The translations under genes and the position numbers were made by a program. A stretch of DNA of 63,733 nucleotides, counting the filler, from Chrysochromulina tobinii (Eukaryota), in the NCBI GenBank assembly GCA_001275005.1. It is 9 parts of 9 records of this genome, joined end to end, with 100 filler letters (N's around TTAATTAATTAA, not from the genome) between each part and the next. Parts side by side here need not be neighbours in the genome. Positions count along the whole stretch, not along the records: positions 15,510 to 27,333 come from JWZX01000617.1; 8 more parts are not named here. One strand, given 5' to 3'. Positions 15,510-32,258 of this stretch are shown piece by piece (the stretch's first letter is position 1; the number at the start of each line of letters is the position of its first letter). Below the pieces are notes generated by a model, which worked only from the letters and a program-made list of their open reading frames with translations, ran no database searches and was not told where the DNA came from.

Positions 15510-15762
15510 GCGCCTTTCGCCTCCTTTTGAAGCCATTCATTTTCTCAACCCCTTTGGCAGGCGTGGCCTTCTCTCATTTCCGACGATGCGACGATTCCCG
15601 GACACGCCGTGAGGGTCTGTGCGTCTCGCGCATCACGCCCTTTGCGTCCTTTCGCTTTTCTTTTCGAGCGCCTTTCACCTCCTTTTGAAGCATTCATTTT
15701 CTCAACCCCTTTGGCAGGCGTGGCCCCCAGACACGCCGTGAGGGTCTGTGCGGCTCGCGCAT
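15510..15762 (+). repeat. Imperfect direct repeat (~158-nt spacing)
   Basis: gcgccttt..cctccttttgaagc..attcattttctcaacccctttggcaggcgtggcc and gacacgccgtgagggtctgtgcg each occur twice. gtgagggtctgtgcgtc recurs at ~16110. Confidence 0.8.
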
Positions 15763-17674
15763 GGCCTCGCACCAGCACGCGCTTCGCATTCCAACCCCCC
15801 GTCCCAGTACATCCACCCTCACCCTTCCGCTGACCCCCTTGATCCTTTGCCCCCCTTCACAAGTTCTACTCTTCTTGCATTTTGCCCCCTTTTCTGCTAG
15901 TCCTTCGACACATTTGGATGATCACTCAGGGTCTCTTTCCAGGAGAGGGGTCTCCCACCTTTGGGAGACCTTACTCTCCACCACTCGCGAAATTTTTTCT
16001 GACGCGGACGGTCCGGATTCATCGCTCAAAAGGGATGTTAGGGATCAAGCCTGGAACAATGGTCTGGAAGGTGGAAGCACGGCCCGCAATCGGCGCAGTT
16101 CGTGGTGGAGTGAGGGTCTGTGCGTCACGCATACACGTGCCTTCGTCCCACGATTTCCCTATTTCCGAAGGCCTTCGTTACTTTCACGATTTTTGTTTTT
16201 TAACCCCCCTAACCCCCGCGCCTCCTCGAGGGCCGGGTGGGGCTCAACCGGCAATGGCAAGGCCATGTATGACTGGCTTGTCAATCATGGCTCCACTGAT
16301 GACGCGGCCACGCAAGAGCTCCTGCTGCCAGACGTTCGACCGGCGTTCCACACCTTTCAGGTATGGAGATGCGTGATACTTGGAGTCGGAGGTCTTGAGG
16401 AACGCTCGTGTTCGCCCACCTCTGTGGTTGGCGTATTCAACAAACTCGCCGCGGTCAACCTCTTCGACAACGGCGTCTTCGAGAGGCCCGAAGGCATATT
16501 AACTGACAATGGCTTGTTCAACATGATGCAGAACAGCGGCCGGTGCGCCGTCTTGCAAAGCCATCTGCCCACCCTCAACCTCAACGGCGGTTCCTCAGCA
16601 GCAGGCGAAGAGCTCGAAATCGGAAACGAGGACAAGCCAGATGCTAAGGCAAATTCCACGGGGAACGACAGGAACCGTGTTCTAATCAAGTCGCCGACCT
16701 ACCTGCGCTACCCGCCAGGCCTTGGATTCTCTGCGAGTTGTTCATCCGACAGCGGTACGCCCATCGGTAAAGCAAGCGTGGACATCAGCGGTGACTTGCT
16801 TGGCACGGCCTCACTGCAGCCACACTCTTCCACGTCATCCACGCCTCCTCTACTGCAAATCCCGCCAAAATGCCCTAAGCCTATTCCCACAGCTGGATGG
16901 AGAGGGGAGAGGACGCCTGCCTCATCTGGGGGGGGCGCGGAAGATTTTGATGAACAACCTCCGGCCCCATGCGGGAGCGAGCCCAATGCCACCTTCCGCA
17001 ACTACATGGCGCGCCTGTACATTACCTCTACATCCCTCTTCCGCTTCAGCCACACCACCTCTATGGAACACCCAGCCAAGAACTCTGACCATTGCAGATC
17101 AGGTCTTGACGCGGCTGTTTGGGGGGGGGAGAGGGGATGGCCTCATCTGGGGGGGAGAACCGAAACCGGAGCATTTCAAGGAAGAAATGCCAGCCTGATG
17201 TGGGGGGGATCATCAGGATGCATGTCTGCATGGCATGACTCTGACGCCTCAACACTCGACGAGCTCAGTGTCTCGTCGGGGGGGGTGACACAACCGTGTT
17301 CATGTGTGAATAGTGGTGGGTGTCTGTAACCGATCATCGTATGGTCGAGGTTGTCCAGTTGCCTTTCCAGGCAAGTATCCGGGCAGAGCCAGTCCCCGAC
17401 TCTGTTCCGTGACTGGACGACAGCGACCTCGATGGTGGTCCTTGTCTTTGTGCGTGTGCGCAGTGGCGCCAGTGCACAGCTCAGTGGAGCATACTAACAG
17501 TGAAACCAGTACGTCTTAGTGCAATAGCGATGTCAACTACTGGCTCTTCAAGTCTCGAAACACACTCTCGACTCTGGACACCTCCTCGCGTAAAGCAAAT
17601 GCAAGTACAGACGACCCTTTGAACATCACACCATACTCATCCTACATTTAACCTACTACATTACACAAACGTCA
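15510..17674 (+). mobile_element. Possible internally deleted Copia-like LTR element with a candidate 3' LTR at 17286-17674
   Basis: A G8 tract (17278-17285) immediately precedes a 389-nt segment bounded by TGAC...GTCA. The upstream ORF contains patches resembling gag (GNGKAMYDWL) and the Copia RT/RNase H junction (LMWGG...SAWHDSD). No 5' LTR is visible. Confidence 0.35.
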
Positions 17675-17790: not shown

Positions 17791-20272
17791 CTACGTATGT
17801 GTGGCTTCTGACCCTCGCTGTGACTTCTGGCGCGCGCGCATATCGCGGCTCTCCGCCACGAAGCCATCGAGGCCGAGGCTGACACGCTGCGCCTTGTAGC
17901 CCGAGGCTAGCCACCCCTCGTCCTCCTCAGCATGCAGGCCACTTGCGGGCGCCCACTCGACCTCTGCCGCAACCGCGACCGCATGGCGCCGCACCAAAGG
18001 AGGGGGGGGGGCTGGAGGTCCTGTAGACTTGTGGCCTTCAGAACTTTGACGGGAAATGGGCGAGAAATGGACGGAAGATTGACTGGACAGGGGTGGCTTG
18101 AGGTTCTCGGAATATGCAGTCAGGTTCTCCGGCCGCAGTGCCACCTTGCTCGTCTGCCCGTCGATCAGCACGTGCCAGAGGCCCTTGATCGCGTCGTGCG
18201 CGACCACGCGTGCTTTCGTGCCGTTCAGGTCGGTGCGCTGCGAGAGCCCAGCCACTGTGCAAATGTCGCCGACGACGATAACCAGCTCAGCCGAGGGCGA
18301 GACGATGGCGACCGGCATGTCGCCAGAGGCATGCGTGCCGTTGAGCGCCGTGTCGCCCGAGGCATGCTTGCCGTTGAGCGCCGTGTCGCCCGAAGCATGC
18401 GTGCCGTTGCTCGACCCTCTCTGAAGCGCCGTCGTGGTACCGGGCATGCGCCTGTCATCTCTCTGAGCGTCGCTGCCCCCCTCAACGGCCGCCACCGCCA
18501 TCGGAAAGGGGTCGTCTTCCAGCGTGACCTTCTGGAGCAGGGCAGCGCTATCCTGATCACCCTGCTCAACGCCTGGCAACCACCGCTCAAGGCTCACAGT
18601 GCCGCCATCGGTGAAGAGCGTCCGCAGCACGCCGAGCAGAGCTCCCACACGCCTCTGCACGCGCGCCTCAGCTTGCTCATCTAACTGCAGCGTCGCCGGG
18701 ACTAGCACGCTTGGATCGCCGACGAAGAGCTCGTTGGTCACCTGTGGGGAAGGAAGGAAGGGCGCCGTGGTGAGAATTCGCATGCGCGCGCGCGCACGCT
18801 CGGAACGACCCGGCAACGAGCTCATTGGTCACCTGGCGGCGCTCCTCGTCGTGCTGCGAGCGGAAGTCGAGGATGATCAACTTCTCAGCGCTGAGTGCCT
18901 CGAAGAGACGCCCGTTGAGTCCCCACGTTGGTGCAGAGACGGTGCGTAGCTGGAAGTGTACGGGCACCGCGGCCGAGCCGGCGCCCAGAGACTTGGCGCC
19001 GGTGGCCAGTGACGCGCGGCTTCGCGCGCTCGCCCCCTCGATGAGAGCGACCGCGGTGCGGTGATTGCGATTGATGACGAGCCGCAGAAGCACGGGCGAG
19101 ACGAGGATGCTGAGGACGACGGCGAGGATGACTGAGGCGAAGGCGCGCTGATCCAGGAGCCCAGCGGAGCGCGCTGTCGTCGCGACGACAAAGGCGAACT
19201 CGCCCCAAGCCGACATCGCCAGCCCAACCGTCCAAAACTGGCCCCAGTTCAACGGCATGGCCCACAGGCCGGTCGCAATCTTGCCCAGGACGGCGACGCT
19301 GAGGATGGCGGCGCCCTTGAGGACCTCGAGGGACGCGAACTCATTGATGGGCACCGCGAACGCGATCGTCGCTGCGAAAAAGATGCGCAGCAGCCACTGC
19401 ATGAGGCGCTTGACCTGGCGGGCCCACGAGTCGTGGACGTCGCGATCGGTGCAAAAGGAGAGGCCGGAGAGGAAGGCTCCGAGGAGCGGTGAGGAGCCGA
19501 GCTCGTGGCAGAGCGGTACGAGGATCATCGCGAGCAGCATCAGCATGCCGAGCAGTACCTTTGGGAGCCTCTTCGGCGGTATCCGGGGCTTCAGCCGCCT
19601 CATGAGCCCGGGCACCACCTGCACGCCCAGCCAGAGGCCCAAGGCAAGGAGACCCACCGACGACACGATTGGGCGCAGCAGCGACATGGCCGATGCATCG
19701 TCGAGCGCCTGCAGCTCAGAGAGCAAGATCAGCGCGATGATGTCGTCCAGCACCGCGGCCGAGATCACGAGCTGGCCTGTCGGGGTGTTGAGCACTTTGC
19801 CCCGCTTGAGCACGTTCAGCGCGACGCCCATAGAGGTCGGTGCGAGCGTGCAGCCGACGGCGAGTGCCGAGCGCCAGCTGAGGCCGAGCACGCCAATGGA
19901 GAGCGCGGTCGCAATCGCGAGCGGTGCGAGCGAGCCCGAGATTGCCACACCCAGGCCACGCAGCCCGAGGAGGCGCAGCATCTCCAAGTCGACGTCTAGC
20001 CCCGCCTCGATGACGAGCAGCATCAACCCGACCTCGCCGTAGAGCACAAGCGCATGGTGCTCAGGCACCACGTTGGCAAAGTTAGGCCCGAGCAGCCCGC
20101 CCACGACGATCTCACCCACAAGGGCGGGGCACCCAATCCGATGGAAGCACTTGCCCGTAACCCAGACAAGCGTGATGAAGAAGACTATCCACAGGATATG
20201 GTGGAACTCGTTGGCGTCGTCTTCGATCGCGTCGTCTAGGGAAGACGCGCCGCACGATACGTTGCTCGCCAT
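17791..20272 (-). CDS. CPA2-family cation/H+ antiporter with a long cytosolic tail; exons 20272-18833 and 18741-17791, intron 18742-18832
   Basis: About 12-13 TM segments with PALVGEIVVG.LLGP, EAGLDVD, LAPTSMG, SAAVLDD, LLGAFLSGL and GEFAFVVA. The GT-AG intron joins the two ORFs in frame. Confidence 0.9.
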
Positions 20273-21231: not shown

Positions 21232-21470
21232 GGCGTGGTCAAGTCAAGTCAAGTCATGTTGGATCCCCCCCGCCATCTCCATCGACTCCCGTCCTCCCCT
21301 GCTGGCTTCCGGAGCACATTCGATAGGCTTCCGTTTGGTTGACTGTTGATCATGAATGGAACTTATCCATGGAGTGCAATCTGCAGAGTGCAATCCCGCA
21401 TCCCCTTGGGCCGCCCCTTGGCTGGGTATAGGCGGCGCGGCGCGGCAGACTCAGTTCACGCCGTGCGCCA

Positions 21471-23133
21471 ATGGCGTGGACGCTCGCTGCGGTCAACTAC
21501 AATGAAAAGAGGAGGCTCGGCGCGCCCTTCTGCGAGCTGCGCGACGGCAAACTCGGCTCTGTGTACACCATGCTGACCGAGATGCTAGAGCGGCGAGGAG
21601 ACTGGAGACGAAAGACCGCAGCGAGGAGTCGTGGCGGACTCATGCTGCCACCGAGCTTCCACTTGCTGCTCGGCACTGCGCAAGGCAAGGGCATACCATG
21701 GGAGTACCACCAATGCAAAAGCACCGGTGGCCCTCCGCTCGTGAACTACTACTACGGCTTCGAGACTCTGACACGAAAGGCTGACCTGGTGGCCATGCTC
21801 CAGAACTCAGAGGCAACCTGTGGCGGCAACTGGCCAACGCACATGCCCGTCAGGCTGATGGCTCCCGTATGCGTGCCAGGCCACCTCGTATGGGAGCTCC
21901 TGCCCAAGTCATTTGCCTTCTATCCGGATCGTGGGATCACTCACCAGCGATTCCGCAGCTCCTTTTTCGCGGCCTTCGCGGCGGCAGAGCGCGCGCACGG
22001 ATCGCTCCACAACGTATGGATCGTCAAGCCGTCGAACGGTATGGTGATTGCGCTCGATTGCGCGCGATTGCGCGTGATTGCGCGTGATTGCGCTTGATTG
22101 CGCTTGATTGCGTCCGTGGAGGTCCAAAGGTATGGTGACCTCTCGTCTGTGCCCTCGCTGCATGTAAGGTTGCAAAGGCGAGCGCATCTTCCTCTCGAGC
22201 TCGTACAACGAGATTGTGCAGTTCCTGATGGAGGAGGCAATGCACGCCGCGTATGGCGAGGTGATTGCTTCCGCCTGGGTGGTGCAGCGGTACATTCACA
22301 ACCCGCTGCTACTCCGGGGTGGGCGCAAGTTTGACCTGCGCTGTTGGGTGCTGCTCGATGCGGACTACAACGTCTGGCTCTACCAGCAGGTGAGAAATAA
22401 GAGGACTGTATCCCTTTTTGGATTGAGCGATATTCTTTGCGTTCCATGACAACTTTGCGTCGAACCCGCCACTCCGACCGTCGCGCGCAGGGCGTCGCGC
22501 GAACGGCGGCTGTGCCCTACGACATTCACGACCTGGCGAACTACTTCGCGCATTTGACGAACCATTGCATTGCCGAGACACACGCCGCCTTTGGAGCGTA
22601 CGAGCCGAACAACGAATTGTTCTACGCGTCGCTGGACGCCGAGTTGAGCCATGCGCTTCCACAGTGCGCTGCCGCGGCAGGCGGCTCCGTCCTGTACGGC
22701 CGCATACTACCGCAGGTGCGCGCCTTTTGAGGACGCCTTTTGAGGACGCCTTTTGAGGACCCCTTTGATGGCCTCTGATGGCCGCGCATCGCCTCTCTGG
22801 TTGCAGGTGCGCAGGATTGTCGTCCAAACGCTGCTTGCGGCGCGTCCGACGCTGCAGAGTGCGGACGACGATTACTATGCGTTCCAGCTGCTCGGCTACG
22901 ATTTCGTCATCGACTGCGACCTTCGCGTGTGGTTGTGCGAGGTGAACGCCTCTCCTGCCGTTGCGAGCGCGTTGCTTCCAGGGCTAGTGCACGCTCTCAT
23001 CCGACGCGCGATCGATCCCATTTGCGTGCCCGACGTGTCCCGGGAGGACGTGCGGCCTCGCGAGGGCGAGGCGGAGGCGTCCAGGGCTAGGCGCGGGGAG
23101 GACTTTGAGTGCATCATGGCTGGACCTCAGTAG
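21471..23133 (+). CDS. TTL: Tubulin-tyrosine ligase; four exons, introns 22039-22168, 22390-22490 and 22716-22806
   Basis: LVNYYYGFETLTRKADLV, VWIVKPSNG|CKGERI, VVQRYIHNPLLL..GRKFDLRCWVL, HLTNHCI, FQLLGYDF and WLCEVNASP. All three introns keep frame. Confidence 0.9.
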
Positions 23134-25376: not shown

Positions 25377-27333
25377 ATGGTGACGCCCGATGTGTCGCAC
25401 GAGACGATGCTCTACCCGTGGCACGACAGCTCCTACAACAAGGGCCTGCCGAGTGAGACGCACGTCGGCTCGAGCTCGGTCTTCTCCACCGTCGTCATGG
25501 CGCCGGCCGAGCTCGGCTTGCAGTTCAAGGTCAACCTGGAGAAGACGTTCCATAGCCCACGCCTGAGTGCGCTGCAGGTGGGCGCGTGTGCAGGCACGCG
25601 CAAGCCAAACGAGCAGCTCGAGTGGAGCGAGGCGCGCAGTCACGGCATCCGGTTGGGCTACAACTTTTACCAATCAACCCCGCCGCCGCATGGCGCAGAG
25701 GAGGAGGCGCCGCGCGTGAAGTGGCATGTGGACCCGTCGACGCTGGGAACCGTCTCCTTGGGCCACGCGCTGCTCACGCCCGCGGCACGCGAGAAGTGCG
25801 CACGCATCGAGCGCGCCATGCTGCGCTACGATGCCGACACGTTGCTCGCGACGGAGTCTGGTGTGCTCGCGACAGCGCTTGCTCAGCTCGAGAAGCACGA
25901 CGCGCGGCTCGTGAGGGCGTTCACGGCGCTGCAGTCGGTCGGCGGGCTGTCGGACAACGAGCGGCACGCGTTGCAATCGGCGCTGCAGTCCGTTCACACA
26001 TCCCAGAGACACGTGGGTCCAACACGCATGTCTGTGCAATCAACGCATGCGATCAACGTATCCCACGTGGGTTCGACACCACCCTCGCTTTCACACGACG
26101 AGAGCTCTCAAACCGGCCCGACGGGCAAGCAAACGAAGGCGCACCTGCCCATCGTCGGGGCGCTCAATACGGCGCCCAAATCTAGGCAGTCGGTGCTCGA
26201 CACGGCGCGTGCCCTGCTCAAGGAGCACGCCGCGGTGCATCAGGCGACAATGATGCTTGTGGACCGGTGGGACGTGGCATGGTGCGTGCGAACACAAGAG
26301 GGCGTTGCTGATATCCCTCCCTCGTTGCATGCTAACCGGCCTCCCTCGTTGCATGCTGACCGGCCTCCCTCGTTGCATGCTGACCGGCCTCCCTCGTTGC
26401 ATGCTGACCGGCCTCCCTCGTTGCATGCAGGCGTGCGATCATGGCCGAGGCCGAGGGTGTGCGAAAGGCCGCGCTCCACCGGATGATGGAAGCCGCCACC
26501 ATGGTGCACGCAGAGATGGAAGAGGTGAGCCCGGTTGGTGTGCGTCTGAGTGCGTCTGAGTGCGTCTGAGTGCGTCTGAGTGCATCTGAGTGCGTCTGGG
26601 TGCATCTGAGTGCGTCTGGGTGCCTCCCTCGTCACAGGTCGAGCTGCGTCTCACAGATCATGTCCTGCTCAACATAAGCGAAGAGGCCGAGCGTATGTCC
26701 AAGGCGGTAGGCCCCGATGGCGACCGACTACGCGACCTGCGGGCACAAGCGCGGCTGCTGCAGCAGAAGCAGTTCAAACAGAAGGCTGTGCTCGTAAGCG
26801 TGGCCAAGCGGGCCCTCGAGTGCGCCGACCGGCACAGCGACGAGCTCAGCCAGATGCGCAGCTCGCTCGACATCTCGGGGAGCCTCGCGGAAGGACTCGC
26901 GCACCCAATCGAGGGTTTCGTCAAGTCTCGTCGAGCCGGTGCGCCCTCCATCCTGGAGTTTGCGGCGGGTACGAGGGCGGACAATGAGAGGACGAAGAGG
27001 GCGGGGGCGGGCGGGCGGGGCAGCCAGCGCGCACGCCGATGCTGCTGCTCAGCGAGGCGGTCCAGAAGGCCTTGCAGGCATGCGATGCGCACCGCGCGGC
27101 TGCCGAGCTGCGGCGGCTCGCCGCGTTCGGTTTTCGTCCAGTCTCGGTGCACGCGCTGCAGGGCATCGAGGACGCCGAGGTCGCGGTCGCGCTCGCGGAG
27201 CAGGAGGCTCGCGCGGCAGCGGCCAAGGCGCTGGCCGCCGCCGCCGCGTCGCAGGCAGCCGAGGCGCAGCTCGAGGCAGCGCAGGAAAAGGAGGAGGAGG
27301 AGGCGGCAGGCGCGGCCGGCTCGAGGGGTTCGT
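25377..27333 (+). CDS. Uncharacterised helical/coiled-coil protein, 3'-partial; introns 26267-26430 and 26525-26637; probable frameshift at ~26986
   Basis: Splicing gives continuous ...MMLVDR|RAIMAEAEGVRKAALHRMMEAATMVHAEMEE|VELRLTDH.... Both introns are GT-AG and filled with tandem repeats. Confidence 0.65.
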
Positions 27334-27433: not shown

Positions 27434-27950
27434 TCAGGGGGGTGGTCTAGATGATCTGCAGCGCGAGAGGGCCGCGCCATTGAGTCTTCCTGGCGACAGA
27501 GGTGCCGAACATGGCCCGAACATGTCGGCGCGATACTGTTGCGTGAACCCCGTTCTTGGTTCTTCCCTCCCCCGACGGCGTGAAGAAAAGAGCCGTCCCT
27601 TGAGAATGAAACTGACTGTTGATGACTGATGCATATGAAGCCCCGCGAAAAGCCGATACAGCGCGCCCTTACAAAAAGGCGCGTTTTGACCTCTCTGTTT
27701 TCCTCTCACCGAGCCTCAGACAGACGGACCCGGTGACTGCGCGATCAATCAATAGCTGGAGGCGTGGGCGCCTTGTCGAGCCCCGTCGGCACTGCTCCTG
27801 GCTCGCTCCACCTGCCACAGCTCCCCATGCCCTGCGCGAACCCCAATCTCGTCGCGCTGCTCCGCCGGTGGACAGCGGCAGCCGAAGATGCTAATCATTC
27901 ATCGTGAGTGCCACGCATAGAACACGCGCGAGCACACAGCGCACTCGCAA

Positions 27951-30900
27951 ATGACGCCAGGACGCGCACCCTGTTTCGCTCGCAGACAGCAAGCGCAGAC
28001 CTTTCGCCGTGCGGCCAAATCGATGGCTGCACACCCGACGCCGATCACGTGCAAAGCGGAGGCGCTCGCCGTCAAGTTCGTCGGCGAGAAGATCGGCGAG
28101 GCGCTCGGCGACTATCTGGCCTTCGAGCGCGGTCAGCTGCTCGCCGATGTCCGGACCGTCGCGCGGCTGCGCCACGACGCCGAGGGCAAGTGGTGGAGCG
28201 TGCGGGTGTGCGCGGGCATGGCGTGGCGCTCGTGGGGCAAGCTCGCCAACGGCGCGGAGCAACCGGGGATGGACAACTGGGAGCACTGCCACGACGGCGC
28301 CGCTGCGCTCGCGTGGGCGGTCGAGAAGGCTACCAAACAGCTCAAGAAGGGCTACGCTCATGGCGTCGGCTCGGATGCGCAGTACGCAGCCGCGTGCGCC
28401 GAGGTGCCGACAGCACCACCTCGCGGCCGACGTGCGGGCGCCGCCATGGCTGCCGCCGCTCCGTCGGCGGCGCCGGCGCCAGCCGCACCGGCGCCCGCTC
28501 GAGCGACCTCCTCGGGCAGCAAGCCGCCGACCCTCGTCGCGTGGGATTCGGACGCGGACGCCGCCGACACTGACAGCGTCGCAGCGCCCTCGGCAGCGCC
28601 CTCGACGACGATGACGGCCGAGGAGGCGGAGGAGGCGGAGGAGGCGGAGGAGGCGGCGGAGGCGGAGGATCCCCTCCTGGACAACGACGGCGCCGAAAAA
28701 GAGGGCGAAGTGCGCAAGCGCGTGTACCACCCGAAGCTCACCAACCCCCGTGGGGAGGTGGCCGCTGCCCCCTCGATCTTAGTCGCGCTGTACCGGGCGG
28801 GCGCGATCGGCACCGGCAGTTTACACGCGCTCAGCACGGCGGAACTGTTGGGGCGCGCACAGAAGCTCTGCCCGGCCATTGGGCTCACGGCCACCTCGCT
28901 CGGTGGCAACGGGCGCGCACGCGGTGGGCGAGGCGGCGCCGGGCGGGGCGGCGGCGGCGGGCGTGGGGTGCACCGCGGCGCCGGGACGGGCGCTCTGAAG
29001 ACTCTTCTCAAGAATGAGCTGATCGTGATGCGCAAGGAGGGGCACACGCATGTGTATAGCCTCCTCACGACGCCCAGCGCGCTCGCGCCCTCGCGCCAGC
29101 AACCCGGCAGCGAGCTCGCCGCCACCCTTGACGTCGAGATGCATGCGCGCGAGGAGGAGGAGCGTCGAAGTCACGGCCGCCATGTGCACGGCCCGACACT
29201 CGGCGGCGGAGGGTATGTGCCGCCGCCGTGGGCGCCCGCCTACTGGCCCGACGGCGCGGGCGGCTACGTGCTCGCGCAGATCCCACTGCCCGCGACGGCG
29301 CCGCCTCCGGACGTTGCGAGTACGCTCAAGGCGGCGGGCTATCCCGTGCCGATTGCGAGTGGGTTCAGCTTCTTTGGGCCGCGCGTCGTGCCGCTGACAG
29401 ATGCGGCGGCGGCGGCGGCGGGACTGCCCGACGCGACCGCCGCGGCCTCGGCGGCTGCAGCGGCCGCGGCGGCCGCCGATGCCACGGGCTCCCTCTATGC
29501 GCGCCTCGCGCGGGCGACTGCGCAGCACGACGACGAGCACGGCGACGGGTATGGCGAAGACGACGACGAGGATGGCTCCTCGTGCTCGCACGCTGGGGAG
29601 ATGTATGGGGCGGACGACGAGGATCGACGGATGCGGAGGGCACTCGCGCTCTCGCGCGCGCAGCGTCGCGGTCAGGCAGGGGCCGCAAGCCGAGCGCTGT
29701 GCCGAGCGCGCACCGGCGCCGTTGCGGGCACGTCGGCCGGTGGCGCCTCCACCTCCTCCTCCGGGGGGGGGGGCGTGGCCCCCTTGGTGACTGCGACCGG
29801 CCCACAGCCACGCCCACAACAGCGCCCACAGCCACGCTCGCACGCCGAGTACCCAGCCCTCCCGCGCGAGGTGTATGACCTCACCTCGCCCTCGCCCACG
29901 GCGGCGCTCGCCCGGCCGTCACTGCCACGCGTCGTGCCGGGCGTGAGCGATGCCCTCGCGAACGCTGTGGTCAACCTTGAGGACGAGGATGGTGCCCATG
30001 ACGACGCTGGTCTCGAGGCGGGCAGGACGACGACGATGCCCACGACGACGCTCCAAGCGCCGTTCACAGCAGGCTCCCACTCGCACGCGCCGCCGAGACA
30101 TGATTGGGGCGCCGTCCTGGCGGCCGTTGCACCGCCGAGACAGGATTGGGGCGCCGTCCTGGCGGCCGTGGCACCCCGTGAGCATTGTGTTGTACAGCAG
30201 CAGCCCACTGAGCGGAACACCCGCCGCACGCTCGAGGCATCGATCGACGAGCCGGAGGAGGCGGACGAGGCGGACGAGGGCGCGGTGGCGGAGGAGAGCG
30301 CTGCGGCGCCCCCCTGGGATGATGACGATCTCGACTGGAGCTGCGACGCCGGCATGAGCGGCCGACCATCTGACAGCTGGCCAGCCCCCGCGGACGAGTC
30401 ACCGGGGGCGGCGGGGGGAGGGGAGGCGGCGCCACGACGTGCCAGCGGAGCTCCCGCGCTTGCTCCCGCGCTTGCTCCCGCGCTTGCTCCCGGGGCAGGC
30501 GCGGATGCGGCGGCAGACGCGGATGCGGCGGCAGGCGCGGACGCGGCGGCAGGCGCGGACGCGGCGGCAGGCGCACTGCTGGATGATGATCTCGATTGGT
30601 GCTGCGGCGCCGAGATGATGGTGGACGACGAGGACGAGGCGGAGGACGAGGCGGAGGACGAGGATCGTGCAGAGGAAGCGGCGGGGCCAGCCAGGCGCAG
30701 CTCGGTCGCCCGTCATCGCGCACCCGGGGGCGCGCGCGAGGCTGGGCGTGCGTGCAAGCTCTCGCGTGGTCCGTCCTCGACGGACATAGGCGCGGCGGCG
30801 CGGGCGGCGAGCGCCGCGGCGAGCGCCTCCTCGGCGGCCTCAAGAGAGCTCGATGCGGTCTCGATCTGCAGCACCGAGACCGACGAGGACGGGGAGAACC

Positions 30901-32258
30901 GATCTCTGAACACGGCACTCGTCGAGGACCAGCCCCACGCCCTCGGCGCTGTCGTGGGCGCGCCGCCGCTCACGGCCGAGTCGTCGTTCGTAACGGTCGT
31001 GGGCGTGAGCCCCAAACGGCGCCCGGCGCGCGCCGAGGCGAAGCAGGCGGTGCGCGGCCCCTCGGAGGCCGCCGGTGGTGCGCATGCCCTCCCTGCGGTC
31101 GCGGCGGGCACGGACGTCATGGACGAGGAAGCGAGCGCGGCGCAGGCGGTGCGTGCCTTCGAGCGCTGCCTGCAGCCGAGCGCGCGCGCGCCCGGCACGG
31201 CGCTCCTCGACGCGTACGACCTGGCGATCGTGGTCGACTGCCACGAGAAGCTCTCCAACGCCGAGAGGGCCGGGGCGCTCGTCAGTCGGCTGCAGGGGCA
31301 AGGCCTCAACGCCTTGAGCCGCCAGCTGCCCGTGGGTGACTTTCTCGTCGTCGCACTCCCCAAGCCAACTGGTAAGCCCACCAGCGGTCAGCCCGCTGGT
31401 AAGCCCGCTGGTGGAACCGCAGCTCGACCAGCATGCAAGTGCTCACCACGGCGCCTTGCCCCCTTCCCCACAGGTGTGAATACCGCTGGTGGAACCGCAG
31501 CTCGAGGCGCCGACGGCGTCGGCAGCAGCAGCGCCGGCAGCGGCTCGAGCGGCGGCGCCGGCGGCTCGAGCACGGAGTGGCTCGTGCTTGATACGGTCGT
31601 CGAGCGCAAGGTGCTGTGCGACTTCCTGTCGACCATCAAGTCGAAGCGCCACTACCACTCGCAAAAAGTGAGGCTACAGAGGTGCGGGCTGAACCGCGCG
31701 ATCTATCTCGTCGAAGGGCAGCTCGAGAGGTGGCCCCATGTCGCCGAGCGTCAGCGGATGGCACACGAGCTCGCCACGATCGAGATGGCCGACCGGCTGC
31801 TCGTGCACGTGAGCCGCTCGACCGACGATACGATACGCTTCCTGCGCGCGGCGGTCGAGCGGCTGCAACGGACGATCGGTGGTCGGGATGCAGCCGAGCT
31901 GCGCTGTGCCGGGCTGCTCAAAACCTATGAGGAGTTCGAGACGGCGACCAATCCGCCGGAGCTCGTCTCAGCTGCATTCGGGCGTATGCTACTCAACCTG
32001 CATGGCCTCTCGCCCCCGATGATCGCCAACGTGCTCGCAAAGTACCCGTCGCCTCGCGCGCTCGCGGAGGCCATGGAGTGCCACGAGCGTGCGTGCGTGG
32101 CGCGGGGCCTTCCCTCGGCCCACGCGCGTTGGCTGCTCGCAGATGACCTTGTGCCCGGCAAGCGCCGTCGCAAACTGAGCGAGACCATCACAGACTTTGT
32201 GATGGCTGAGGAGTACCCAACGCCGCCGGCGCCGCCGGCGTCGCAGACGCAGATCTGA
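27951..32258 (+). CDS. MUS81: MUS81-type structure-specific endonuclease (WGR-like, winged-helix, ERCC4 nuclease, HhH); probable in-frame intron 31399 (or 31372)-31473; start may be 28023
   Basis: ERCC4 motifs IVVDCHE, RQLPVGDF, VVERKVLCDF, SQKVRL and IYLVEG. HhH-like FGRMLLNLHGLS...YPSPRAL. Winged-helix-like SILVALY...LKTLLKNELI. Confidence 0.85.
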   Translation: MTPGRAPCFARRQQAQTFRRAAKSMAAHPTPITCKAEALAVKFVGEKIGEALGDYLAFERGQLLADVRTVARLRHDAEGKWWSVRVCAGMAWRSWGKLANGAEQPGMDNWEHCHDGAAALAWAVEKATKQLKKGYAHGVGSDAQYAAACAEVPTAPPRGRRAGAAMAAAAPSAAPAPAAPAPARATSSGSKPPTLVAWDSDADAADTDSVAAPSAAPSTTMTAEEAEEAEEAEEAAEAEDPLLDNDGAEKEGEVRKRVYHPKLTNPRGEVAAAPSILVALYRAGAIGTGSLHALSTAELLGRAQKLCPAIGLTATSLGGNGRARGGRGGAGRGGGGGRGVHRGAGTGALKTLLKNELIVMRKEGHTHVYSLLTTPSALAPSRQQPGSELAATLDVEMHAREEEERRSHGRHVHGPTLGGGGYVPPPWAPAYWPDGAGGYVLAQIPLPATAPPPDVASTLKAAGYPVPIASGFSFFGPRVVPLTDAAAAAAGLPDATAAASAAAAAAAAADATGSLYARLARATAQHDDEHGDGYGEDDDEDGSSCSHAGEMYGADDEDRRMRRALALSRAQRRGQAGAASRALCRARTGAVAGTSAGGASTSSSGGGGVAPLVTATGPQPRPQQRPQPRSHAEYPALPREVYDLTSPSPTAALARPSLPRVVPGVSDALANAVVNLEDEDGAHDDAGLEAGRTTTMPTTTLQAPFTAGSHSHAPPRHDWGAVLAAVAPPRQDWGAVLAAVAPREHCVVQQQPTERNTRRTLEASIDEPEEADEADEGAVAEESAAAPPWDDDDLDWSCDAGMSGRPSDSWPAPADESPGAAGGGEAAPRRASGAPALAPALAPALAPGAGADAAADADAAAGADAAAGADAAAGALLDDDLDWCCGAEMMVDDEDEAEDEAEDEDRAEEAAGPARRSSVARHRAPGGAREAGRACKLSRGPSSTDIGAAARAASAAASASSAASRELDAVSICSTETDEDGENRSLNTALVEDQPHALGAVVGAPPLTAESSFVTVVGVSPKRRPARAEAKQAVRGPSEAAGGAHALPAVAAGTDVMDEEASAAQAVRAFERCLQPSARAPGTALLDAYDLAIVVDCHEKLSNAERAGALVSRLQGQGLNALSRQLPVGDFLVVALPKPTGKPTSGQPAGKPAGGTAARPACKCSPRRLAPFPTGVNTAGGTAARGADGVGSSSAGSGSSGGAGGSSTEWLVLDTVVERKVLCDFLSTIKSKRHYHSQKVRLQRCGLNRAIYLVEGQLERWPHVAERQRMAHELATIEMADRLLVHVSRSTDDTIRFLRAAVERLQRTIGGRDAAELRCAGLLKTYEEFETATNPPELVSAAFGRMLLNLHGLSPPMIANVLAKYPSPRALAEAMECHERACVARGLPSAHARWLLADDLVPGKRRRKLSETITDFVMAEEYPTPPAPPASQTQI

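What the first reader, a model, noticed from the sequence alone, without database searches (positions are those of the whole stretch)
18719..18835. Introner-like intron 1: a shared 3'-splice cassette plus a duplicate of the downstream exon (antiporter gene)
Seen: the last 44 nt of this 91-nt minus-strand intron (GCATGCGAATTCTCACCACGGCGCCCTTCCTTCCTTCCCCACAG, 18785-18742) match the end of the MUS81 intron on another contig (GCATGCAAGTGCTCACCACGGCGCC-TTGCCCCCTTCCCCACAG, 31431-31473) at 37/44 positions by hand alignment, and both are followed by exonic GTG. The donor region CAG|GTGACCAATGAGCTC repeats the acceptor region CAG|GTGACCAACGAGCTC (17/18, extending to 22/26; VTNELVAG vs VTNELFVG). Inference: a small mobile cassette carrying the branch point (CTCAC), pyrimidine tract and AG inserts with a long duplication of exon sequence, and the upstream copy supplies the 5' splice site. 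Introners are established in other algae, mostly as short TIR elements with small TSDs. No TIR is apparent here, and the 18-26-nt duplication suggests a different, possibly retro- or repair-mediated, route to intron gain.
Basis: partly seen in the sequence, partly recalled or inferred. Interest (0 to 1): 0.88.

Follow-up and report, generated by a model that had tools for sequence, protein, structure and literature searches.

The report
Self-copying half-introns in a haptophyte alga
This spliced 91-base intron of the alga Chrysochromulina tobinii is one of hundreds that share only their back half while the front half repeats the start of the next exon, likely because DNA repair copies the end of an existing intron into an exon, a route to new introns that introner surveys appear to have missed.

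Summary
The window is Chrysochromulina tobinii. The 91-nt intron (18832-18742, minus strand) is spliced in two RNA runs. Its 3' 44 nt belong to a family (311 distinct copies in 728 kb of fetched loci) built from a 24-nt branch-point core, a variable pyrimidine tract and AG. In 147 of 216 acceptor-type copies the intron's 5' part duplicates the start of the next exon (5-44 nt, median 27; control 40 of 1080), and that copy supplies the GT donor. Copies lie in sense in genes and cluster locally. One site is empty in another allele. Two parent-daughter pairs show microhomology at both ends plus carried-over donor exon, so the template is unspliced. A second, unrelated 3' cassette shows the same anatomy, which argues for a host process and against an element-specific transposase. 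Best reading (0.5): template switching during break repair, with selection keeping precise introns. The enzyme and DNA-versus-RNA template are untested. The MUS81 copy is not shown to be spliced. A published screen lists zero introner families for this genome.

The parts
18833..20272 (-). Upstream exon of a Na+/H+ exchanger gene (Ctob_014421), ending in CAG
   Evidence: PF00999 E 6.5e-40; 100% to the C. tobinii protein P0002
18742..18832 (-). 91-nt GT-AG intron
   Evidence: RNA contigs of X11 and X16 skip 91 nt; removal restores the frame
18794..18832 (-). Intronic duplicate of the next exon's start; supplies the GT donor
   Evidence: 31 of 39 columns match 18741-18705
18786..18793 (-). 8-nt filler between duplicate and core; inferred to come from the parent copy's flank
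   Evidence: sequence; in the family 23 of 41 fillers recur beside another copy against 3 of 41 controls; the parent of this copy was not found
18762..18785 (-). 24-nt family core, 3 mismatches from the commonest form; holds the likely branch point CTCAC (A at 18771)
   Evidence: 311 distinct copies, shuffles 0, 0, 1; branch point inferred from motif and position, not mapped
18742..18761 (-). Pyrimidine tract and acceptor CCCCACAG
   Evidence: CCCCACAG is the first-AG ending in 146 of 306 copies
18705..18741 (-). Exonic original of the duplication
   Evidence: relatives keep the V-x-N-E-L motif once
17791..18741 (-). Downstream exon of the exchanger gene
   Evidence: ORF; covered by RNA contigs; aligns with relatives
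31428..31482 (+). Second copy, in MUS81: 55-nt insert made of 3 nt of parent flank, core 31431-31454, tract and AG to 31473, and 9 nt of carried-over parent exon; splicing not shown
   Evidence: near-identical to the copy in L088 on both sides; no RNA cover
31405..31427 (+). First copy of the 23-nt duplication at the MUS81 site
   Evidence: 23 of 23 identical to 31483-31505
31483..31505 (+). Second copy of the 23-nt duplication at the MUS81 site

Best explanation
This intron consists of a duplicate of the next exon's start followed by a 3' splice cassette shared with hundreds of other introns, and it likely arose when a host repair polymerase switched template from a broken exon to an existing unspliced intron end and back. 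Inferred steps: a DNA end at a break or staggered nick pairs through 2-6 nt of microhomology just upstream of the core of another copy, often in the same gene; synthesis copies a few bases of that copy's flank, the core, tract and AG; it then re-enters the exon 5-45 nt upstream of where it left, usually through the shared (G)GT(G), so that stretch is duplicated. Shown: when re-entry is at a donor-like GT the first copy serves as 5' splice site and splicing restores the mRNA exactly. Inferred: selection keeps such events (length floor about 65 nt, strong donors, sense strand), and every new intron is a new template, so the cassette spreads without coding for anything.
For: Splicing at this site. 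Duplication in 147 of 216 acceptor-type copies against 40 of 1080 controls, starting at the junction or up to 3 nt before it in 126 of 147; 96 non-tandem cases span 5-44 nt and 31 are perfect. Removal restores frame in 16 of 18 non-3n cases, 1 of 18 without removal. Empty allele: L122 has an 81-nt insert with a perfect 33-nt duplication, L016 and L054 have one copy; its best-matching relative sits about 480 nt away in the same gene region. Parent-daughter pairs L088/MUS81 and L078/L092 share flank, tract and 9 or 7 nt of donor exon, with 5+2 and 6+6 nt microhomology read from the printed pairs. Fillers recur beside other copies, 23 of 41 against 3 of 41. Neighbours share core variants, 44 of 176 pairs against 2064 of 26256 (pairs not independent). 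An unrelated cassette shows the same anatomy, 20 of 59 against 2 of 1180. Core-only inserts with flanking duplications: 25 of 41.
Against: No polymerase is identified and no de novo event was seen. The left edge of the core is sharp (157 of 176 acceptor-type copies reach its first base, partly forced by my search pattern), more than sequence-blind switching would predict. Copies are scarce outside sense-strand genes (133 sense, 14 antisense, 14 uncalled of 161; random 439/440/121), whereas blind DNA repair should leave many neutral intergenic copies in both orientations. Only one empty site was found among about 10 sites comparable across assemblies, and it could be a precise loss between the direct repeats. 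Only two carry-over pairs.
Confidence: 0.5

Rival explanations
1. Target-primed reverse transcription on unspliced nascent pre-mRNA. A retroelement RT or an RT-capable host polymerase primes at a nick through (G)GT microhomology, copies leftwards through AG, tract and core, and joins the far end of a staggered cut. The anatomy is the same, with an RNA template.
For: Geometry fits: one precise end, one variable end with microhomology, variable duplication. Strong sense and gene bias, with local clustering. Cassette-bearing contigs occur in RNA runs. It also fits two unrelated cassettes.
Against: No RT domain in 49 long ORFs scanned, a small part of the 342 found in loci and window. No poly(A) tail, no ladder of truncations through the core, no Rfam head among 5 loci.
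Confidence: 0.27
2. A non-autonomous HUH (Replitron- or Helitron-like) element: a Rep nicks at the AG|GT end, copies one strand to a palindrome in the core and reads a few bases past it.
For: Replitron-1/N1 insertions in Chlamydomonas have a precise end at a dinucleotide, a parent-derived fuzzy end and variable TSDs (PMC10288648 section 9), as here. One incomplete Replitron-like copy is listed for C. tobinii. The core is conserved with a sharp edge.
Against: No terminal direct repeats; the unit is only about 40-45 nt; the precise end varies (CTAATTAG and other endings among duplicated copies); core-only and exon-carrying forms ignore that end; a second cassette without the core behaves the same; no folding signal in 8 strands.
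Confidence: 0.1
3. A spliceosomal product supplies the AG|GT junction: mis-splicing from a cryptic exonic donor to a downstream acceptor gives an intron circle, or partial reverse splicing occurs, and its cDNA recombines into the gene.
For: Duplications start at strong donor-like sites (+5 G in 70 of 111 against 29% background). Spliceosomes can join intron 3' ends to 5' splice sites (PMC10996645, abstract). The parent of L122 lies downstream.
Against: It predicts downstream parents, but there is no such bias: 6 of 8 against 5.9 expected, and 10 of 16 against 9.3 (small numbers). An excised intron cannot carry donor exon bases or end right after the core.
Confidence: 0.06
4. These are old introns whose 5' halves were overwritten by spliced cDNA (incomplete intron loss), so no intron was gained.
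For: It explains why the duplication starts exactly at the exon junction. The window's intron is in all 15 conspecific proteins listed.
Against: Empty allele at L122. Relatives at about 55-72% identity, some called on 8.9-330 kb contigs, read straight through the site (their DNA was not seen). Fillers derive from other copies.
Confidence: 0.04

Closest known systems
Introners / introner-like elements (PMC9860276, PMC12130899)
   Same: Many similar introns from recent copying, enriched in genes; some carry the 3' site and co-opt the 5' site from the TSD (Symbiodinium, 4-bp TSD with TIR). Marine Chrysochromulina MAGs have introners.
   Different: Only the 3' half is shared; the duplication is 5-44 nt and variable, not 3-9 bp; no TIR; ends vary; parents are often neighbours. 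C. tobinii GCA_001275005.1 is listed with 0 families. The figured Chrysochromulina family carries the 5' site with a 4-bp TSD. E. huxleyi fam24 (5 copies, '10bp terminal direct repeats', co-opt 5' carry 3') may be a related case; its sequences were not seen.
Intron gain by tandem genomic duplication (reviewed in PMC3443670)
   Same: A duplicated exon stretch supplies a splice site and the mRNA is unchanged.
   Different: Here the acceptor, tract and branch point are imported from another intron, and the event recurs hundreds of times with a traceable lineage.
[quoted passage not shown]
   Same: Direct repeats from a staggered break flank a filler.
   Different: The repeats are longer, the filler is the 3' end of an existing intron, and each product is a new template.
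Replitron-1/N1 insertions of Chlamydomonas (PMC10288648)
   Same: One precise end at a dinucleotide, a parent-derived fuzzy end, and variable TSDs.
   Different: No terminal direct repeats, about 40-45 nt against 910 nt or more, two unrelated cassettes, and the products are introns.

Membership tests
Introner | Many introns of recent common origin in one genome | tested here: met
   311 distinct copies in 728 kb from several assemblies; depth over the cassette far above single copy in one DNA run
Introner | Similarity spans the whole intron, end to end | tested here: not met
   The 5' part is locus-specific exon duplicate; only 17 copies share a longer 5' extension
Introner | Precise removal by the spliceosome | tested here: met
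   RNA at one site; frame test 16 of 18; colinear Pfam hits
Introner | Recent gain (empty orthologous sites) | tested here: met
   One empty allele; protein-level read-through in relatives; outgroup DNA not seen
TIR (MITE-type) introner | Terminal inverted repeats and a short fixed TSD (3-9 bp) | tested here: not met
   5' ends differ among copies; duplication 5-44 nt; no TIR in the printed copies
Replitron (non-autonomous) | Short direct terminal repeats | tested here: not met
   None seen at the cassette ends in printed copies
Replitron (non-autonomous) | Precise end at a dinucleotide, parent-derived fuzzy end, variable TSD | tested here: met
   these signatures are called non-canonical for the group in PMC10288648
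Replitron (non-autonomous) | Autonomous Rep element with the same termini | not testable with these tools
   No whole genome held; one incomplete Replitron-like copy is listed, its DNA not seen
SINE / non-LTR retroposon | Structural-RNA head and poly(A) or simple-repeat tail | tested here: not met
   No Rfam match above gathering score in 5 loci; no tail in printed copies
SINE / non-LTR retroposon | Partner element with reverse transcriptase | tested here: inconclusive
   No RT in 49 of 342 long ORFs
Tandem-duplication intron | Both splice sites come from the duplicated segment | tested here: not met
   In 59 of 96 cases at most one base before the junction is shared, so the AG comes from the cassette; a minority do duplicate the AG
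Polymerase-theta-type templated insertion | Microhomology at both junctions of a templated insert | tested here: met
   Two full parent-daughter pairs; duplication runs 2-3 nt into the core in 12 of 23 cases that reach it, against 14% background for GC; the feature list is recalled, papers seen only as a listing
Polymerase-theta-type templated insertion | Dependence on POLQ | not testable with these tools
   needs genetics

The most novel reading that the evidence does not exclude
C. tobinii gains introns at scale by a protein-less chain reaction: any intron's 3' end can be copied into a nearby exon with a duplication that donates the 5' splice site, and each product is the next template. At least two unrelated cassettes spread this way, so a large share of this genome's introns would be half-intron copies invisible to whole-intron similarity screens, and the route may explain many 'unknown origin' introns flanked by repeats in other eukaryotes.
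Probability: 0.4. Interest if true: 0.92.

Novelty: new variant of a known kind. Interest (0 to 1): 0.8.

Why it matters
How new spliceosomal introns arise is a long-standing question; the review read here counted few cases for repair-based or transposition routes (PMC3443670, Table 1). This genome offers hundreds of dated events in a cultured alga, with parent-daughter pairs, microhomology scars and at least one polymorphic site, so the mechanism becomes directly testable. It also exposes a blind spot: screens that need whole-intron similarity scored this genome as having no introners. Prokaryote-style gene calls in metagenomes read through these introns (for example P0137), which distorts protein models.

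Tried and rejected
No whole genome is held and the loci's records cannot be searched by handle, so copy number is an estimate: depth ratios of about 240 and 540 (the tool warns this is no copy number) and 2 copies in 63 kb, which scales to about 1,900 in 59 Mb with a very wide interval. Viral contigs: 4 of 5 hits are 41-44% GC phage sequence without tract or AG (chance); L136 is 68% GC and looks like host DNA. Rfam: nothing above gathering score in 5 loci; a tRNA-like look of the antisense core was recalled by eye and is unsupported. Folding: z-scores -1.7 to +2.1 in 8 strands. RT or transposase: none in 49 ORFs. Penelope-like Chlamys elements: the passages read gave no TSD lengths and no haptophyte record. 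Parent direction: no bias; age order of neighbours 2 against 3. A cassette-blind census of duplication introns (first part) was uninformative, since control dinucleotides gave 72-253 hits against 210, because tandem repeats and shifted registers are recounted. Exact look-up of the MUS81 ORF failed, and the NCBI model P0154 skips the region. The intronless-junction search gave 51 hits, all but the L122 pair being tandem arrays or cassette-to-cassette matches. Earlier findings of this scan: none. An apparent third copy in the window is the same intron in minus-strand numbering.

Full report
Setting. The window is nine contigs joined by N-linkers. The exchanger protein is identical, where aligned, to Ctob_014421 of Chrysochromulina tobinii on an 11,824-nt contig, the length of the window's third contig. 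No whole genome is held. The genome paper gives 59 Mb, 16,777 genes, about one intron per gene and 40% coding; the word intron occurs once in its main text (PMC4580454, passages).

Observation. The intron runs 18832-18742 on the minus strand. Its last 44 nt match 31431-31473 at 37 of 44 columns (E 1.8e-7). RNA contigs of X11 and X16 skip exactly 91 nt; X12 does not bridge the site. The X16 contig fits the intronic copy at the one base that differs in the first 15 nt, so that strain's exon likely has the base kept in the intron (inference from table 8). The intron is present in all 15 conspecific proteins listed, with length variants, one of them an in-frame 87-nt form. Relatives at about 55-72% identity read straight through the position, some called on contigs of 8.9, 12, 26 and 330 kb; I infer they lack the intron but did not see their DNA. 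The MUS81 copy adds 78 nt in frame to a low-complexity linker, and no RNA contig of three runs covers it, so its splicing is open.

The family. A pattern that left out the tract and AG found 138 stretches in 3 of 64 parts of the metagenome collection, about 3100 estimated in all; 132 loci, 728 kb, were held. With up to 5 mismatches there are 311 distinct copies of the 24-nt core (window 31431-31454), against 0, 0 and 1 in shuffles. Seeds were chosen by the pattern, so core conservation is overstated. Of 298 copies with long flanks, 216 lead to a pyrimidine tract and AG, 41 are in tandem and 41 are neither; after the AG comes GT in 165 and GC in 20. The next exon's start is repeated upstream of the core in 147 of 216 (control 40 of 1080) and begins at the junction or within the 3 bases before it in 126 of 147 (tandem arrays included). 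In 96 non-tandem GT/GC cases the ungapped duplication is 5-44 nt (median 27), 31 are perfect, introns are 65-132 nt, and duplication length is anticorrelated with filler plus tract (rho -0.70). Donors resemble G|GTRCGC, with +5 G in 70 of 111 against 29% background. Genome-wide number is inferred at several hundred to about two thousand.

They are introns in genes. With a codon model trained on these loci, 79 of 131 copies have only sense-coding flanks, 3 only antisense, 3 mixed and 46 uncalled; random sites give 354, 381, 39 and 721 of 1495. Removal restores the frame in 18 of 21 cases with both flanks called, and in 16 of 18 non-3n cases against 1 of 18 without removal. With wider flanks, 133 of 161 clusters are sense, 14 antisense and 14 uncalled. 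Of 49 exon pairs sent to Pfam, 6 hit the same non-repeat family on both sides, all in order (RmlD, Mito_carr, UBA SCCH, ferrochelatase, His_Phos_1, AMPK1_CBM); 2 more hit repeat families on both sides, and the rest had one or no hit. RNA confirmation exists for the window's intron only.

Gain and parentage. L122 carries an 81-nt insert with a perfect 33-nt duplication where L016 and L054, 97-98% identical in the flanks, have a single copy. Its closest relative among fetched copies lies about 480 nt downstream of the empty site in L016. Of about 10 sites comparable across divergent assemblies, this is the only empty one; three differ in tandem number. Precise loss between the repeats is not excluded. 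Two pairs show the whole event. The MUS81 copy shares flank, tract and 11 exon bases with L088, a different gene, which reads as a 55-nt insert with 5 and 2 nt of microhomology and 9 carried-over exon bases. L092 relates to L078 with 6 and 6 nt of microhomology and 7 carried-over bases. An excised intron cannot supply exon bases, so the template is DNA or unspliced RNA. Fillers left of the core recur beside other copies in 23 of 41 cases against 3 of 41 controls, and where the duplication reaches the core it often runs 2-3 nt into it (12 of 23, with 3 of the 23 being alignment artefacts). Copies within 2.5 kb share core variants in 44 of 176 pairs against 2064 of 26256 distant pairs (not independent), and 47 of 49 neighbours within 500 nt share orientation. 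Parents are not preferentially downstream.

Other forms and a second cassette. Of 41 copies without an acceptor, 25 sit between duplications. Seventeen copies extend towards a longer form (L012:4879-4952, minus); in L040, L059 and L073 that form carries the donor and takes its AG from a 12-16-nt duplicate of the upstream exon's end, the mirror arrangement. Introns built from 10-nt repeats and ending in CCCTCATCAG, without the core, show the same exon-start duplication: 19 of 52 against 0.5%. A direct count gave 211 copies, 161 ending in AG, 102 followed by GT, and 20 of 59 non-tandem cases duplicated against 2 of 1180 controls. The route therefore does not need this core.

Mechanism. Shown: the anatomy, splicing at one site, one empty allele, microhomology and carry-over in two pairs, local kinship, two cassettes. 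Inferred: template switching at a staggered break onto an unspliced copy and back, with selection for precise, long-enough, strong-donor introns. I commit to host DNA repair synthesis (0.5). Reverse transcription on nascent pre-mRNA gives the same anatomy and explains the sense bias better (0.27). An HUH element matches the Replitron-1 signature (PMC10288648, section 9 read whole and supplement rows) but lacks direct terminal repeats and is undercut by the second cassette (0.10). Intron circles (PMC10996645, abstract only) and overwritten old introns are unlikely. Unexplained under my reading: the sharp left edge of the core and the scarcity of intergenic copies.

Comparison with print. PMC9860276 (passages and supplement rows) describes 3-9-bp TSDs, lists introners in marine Chrysochromulina MAGs, and includes C. 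tobinii among the genomes surveyed; a 13-nt piece of the core was not found in the held, cut file. PMC12130899 (passages, section 6, supplement rows) lists C. tobinii with 0 families. PMC3443670 (parts 1-2 of 6) covers tandem duplication and break repair as separate routes. PMC8557442 and PMC8469720 (passages) did not match. Nine searches returned no description of this family or anatomy; the library lacks most subscription papers. Features of polymerase theta are recalled; one search was seen only as a listing.

Verdict. A real, spliced, lineage-specific intron of a large family that works like an introner but fails whole-intron similarity, TIR and short-TSD tests. It is a new variant of intron gain, joining tandem duplication with copying of intron ends; interest 0.8.

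Noticed in passing
L017, L062, L011, L066, L027 and others: Second 3' cassette family of 10-nt repeats ending in CCCTCATCAG, 211 copies in the fetched loci, with the same exon-start duplication; none at that threshold in the window.
   Followed up: partly
L012:4879-4952 (-), L088:475-624, L001, L017, L052, L066, L078, L092: Head-to-tail introns with no exon between them (AG directly followed by GT); candidate recursive splice sites. Tandem number differs between assemblies.
   Followed up: partly
L040, L059, L073: Mirror class: the cassette carries donor and branch point, and a duplicate of the upstream exon's end supplies the AG.
   Followed up: partly
L065 (- strand, near index 9250); core variants in L014, L094, L106: Some repeat-type introns end in TTGCATGCAG followed by GTGCTC, which resembles the core's first 14 nt; the core may be a fossil acceptor plus a captured exon start. 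Speculative.
   Followed up: no
window 22038-22133, 22716-22806, 26525-26637 (+): Likely introns of 10- and 13-nt tandem repeats; the first repeats 9-10 nt of the next exon's start. No RNA contig listed spans them.
   Followed up: partly
window 21238-21348: Intergenic dispersed repeat of about 110 nt bounded by 5-nt microsatellites, high depth in the DNA run, related copies in L065, L026, L072; possible small transposon.
   Followed up: no
window 15510-17530: Lower-GC stretch with a 546-codon ORF without Pfam hit and multi-copy parts (15510-16299, 17286-17529); possible transposon remnant.
   Followed up: no
L136 (IMG/VR contig): A 68% GC 'viral' contig holding a full cassette; probably host DNA in the viral collection.
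   Followed up: partly
window 18833-20272 and 27921-32258: NCBI models P0002 and P0154 drop coding stretches that are open in the genome and, for the exchanger, covered by RNA; gene models of this genome look unreliable near such sites.
   Followed up: partly
L003, L010, L019, L052, L056, L063, L066, L067: Loci with 5-12 cassette copies within a few kb (one with filamin repeats), while 63 kb of the window has two; strong clustering.
   Followed up: partly
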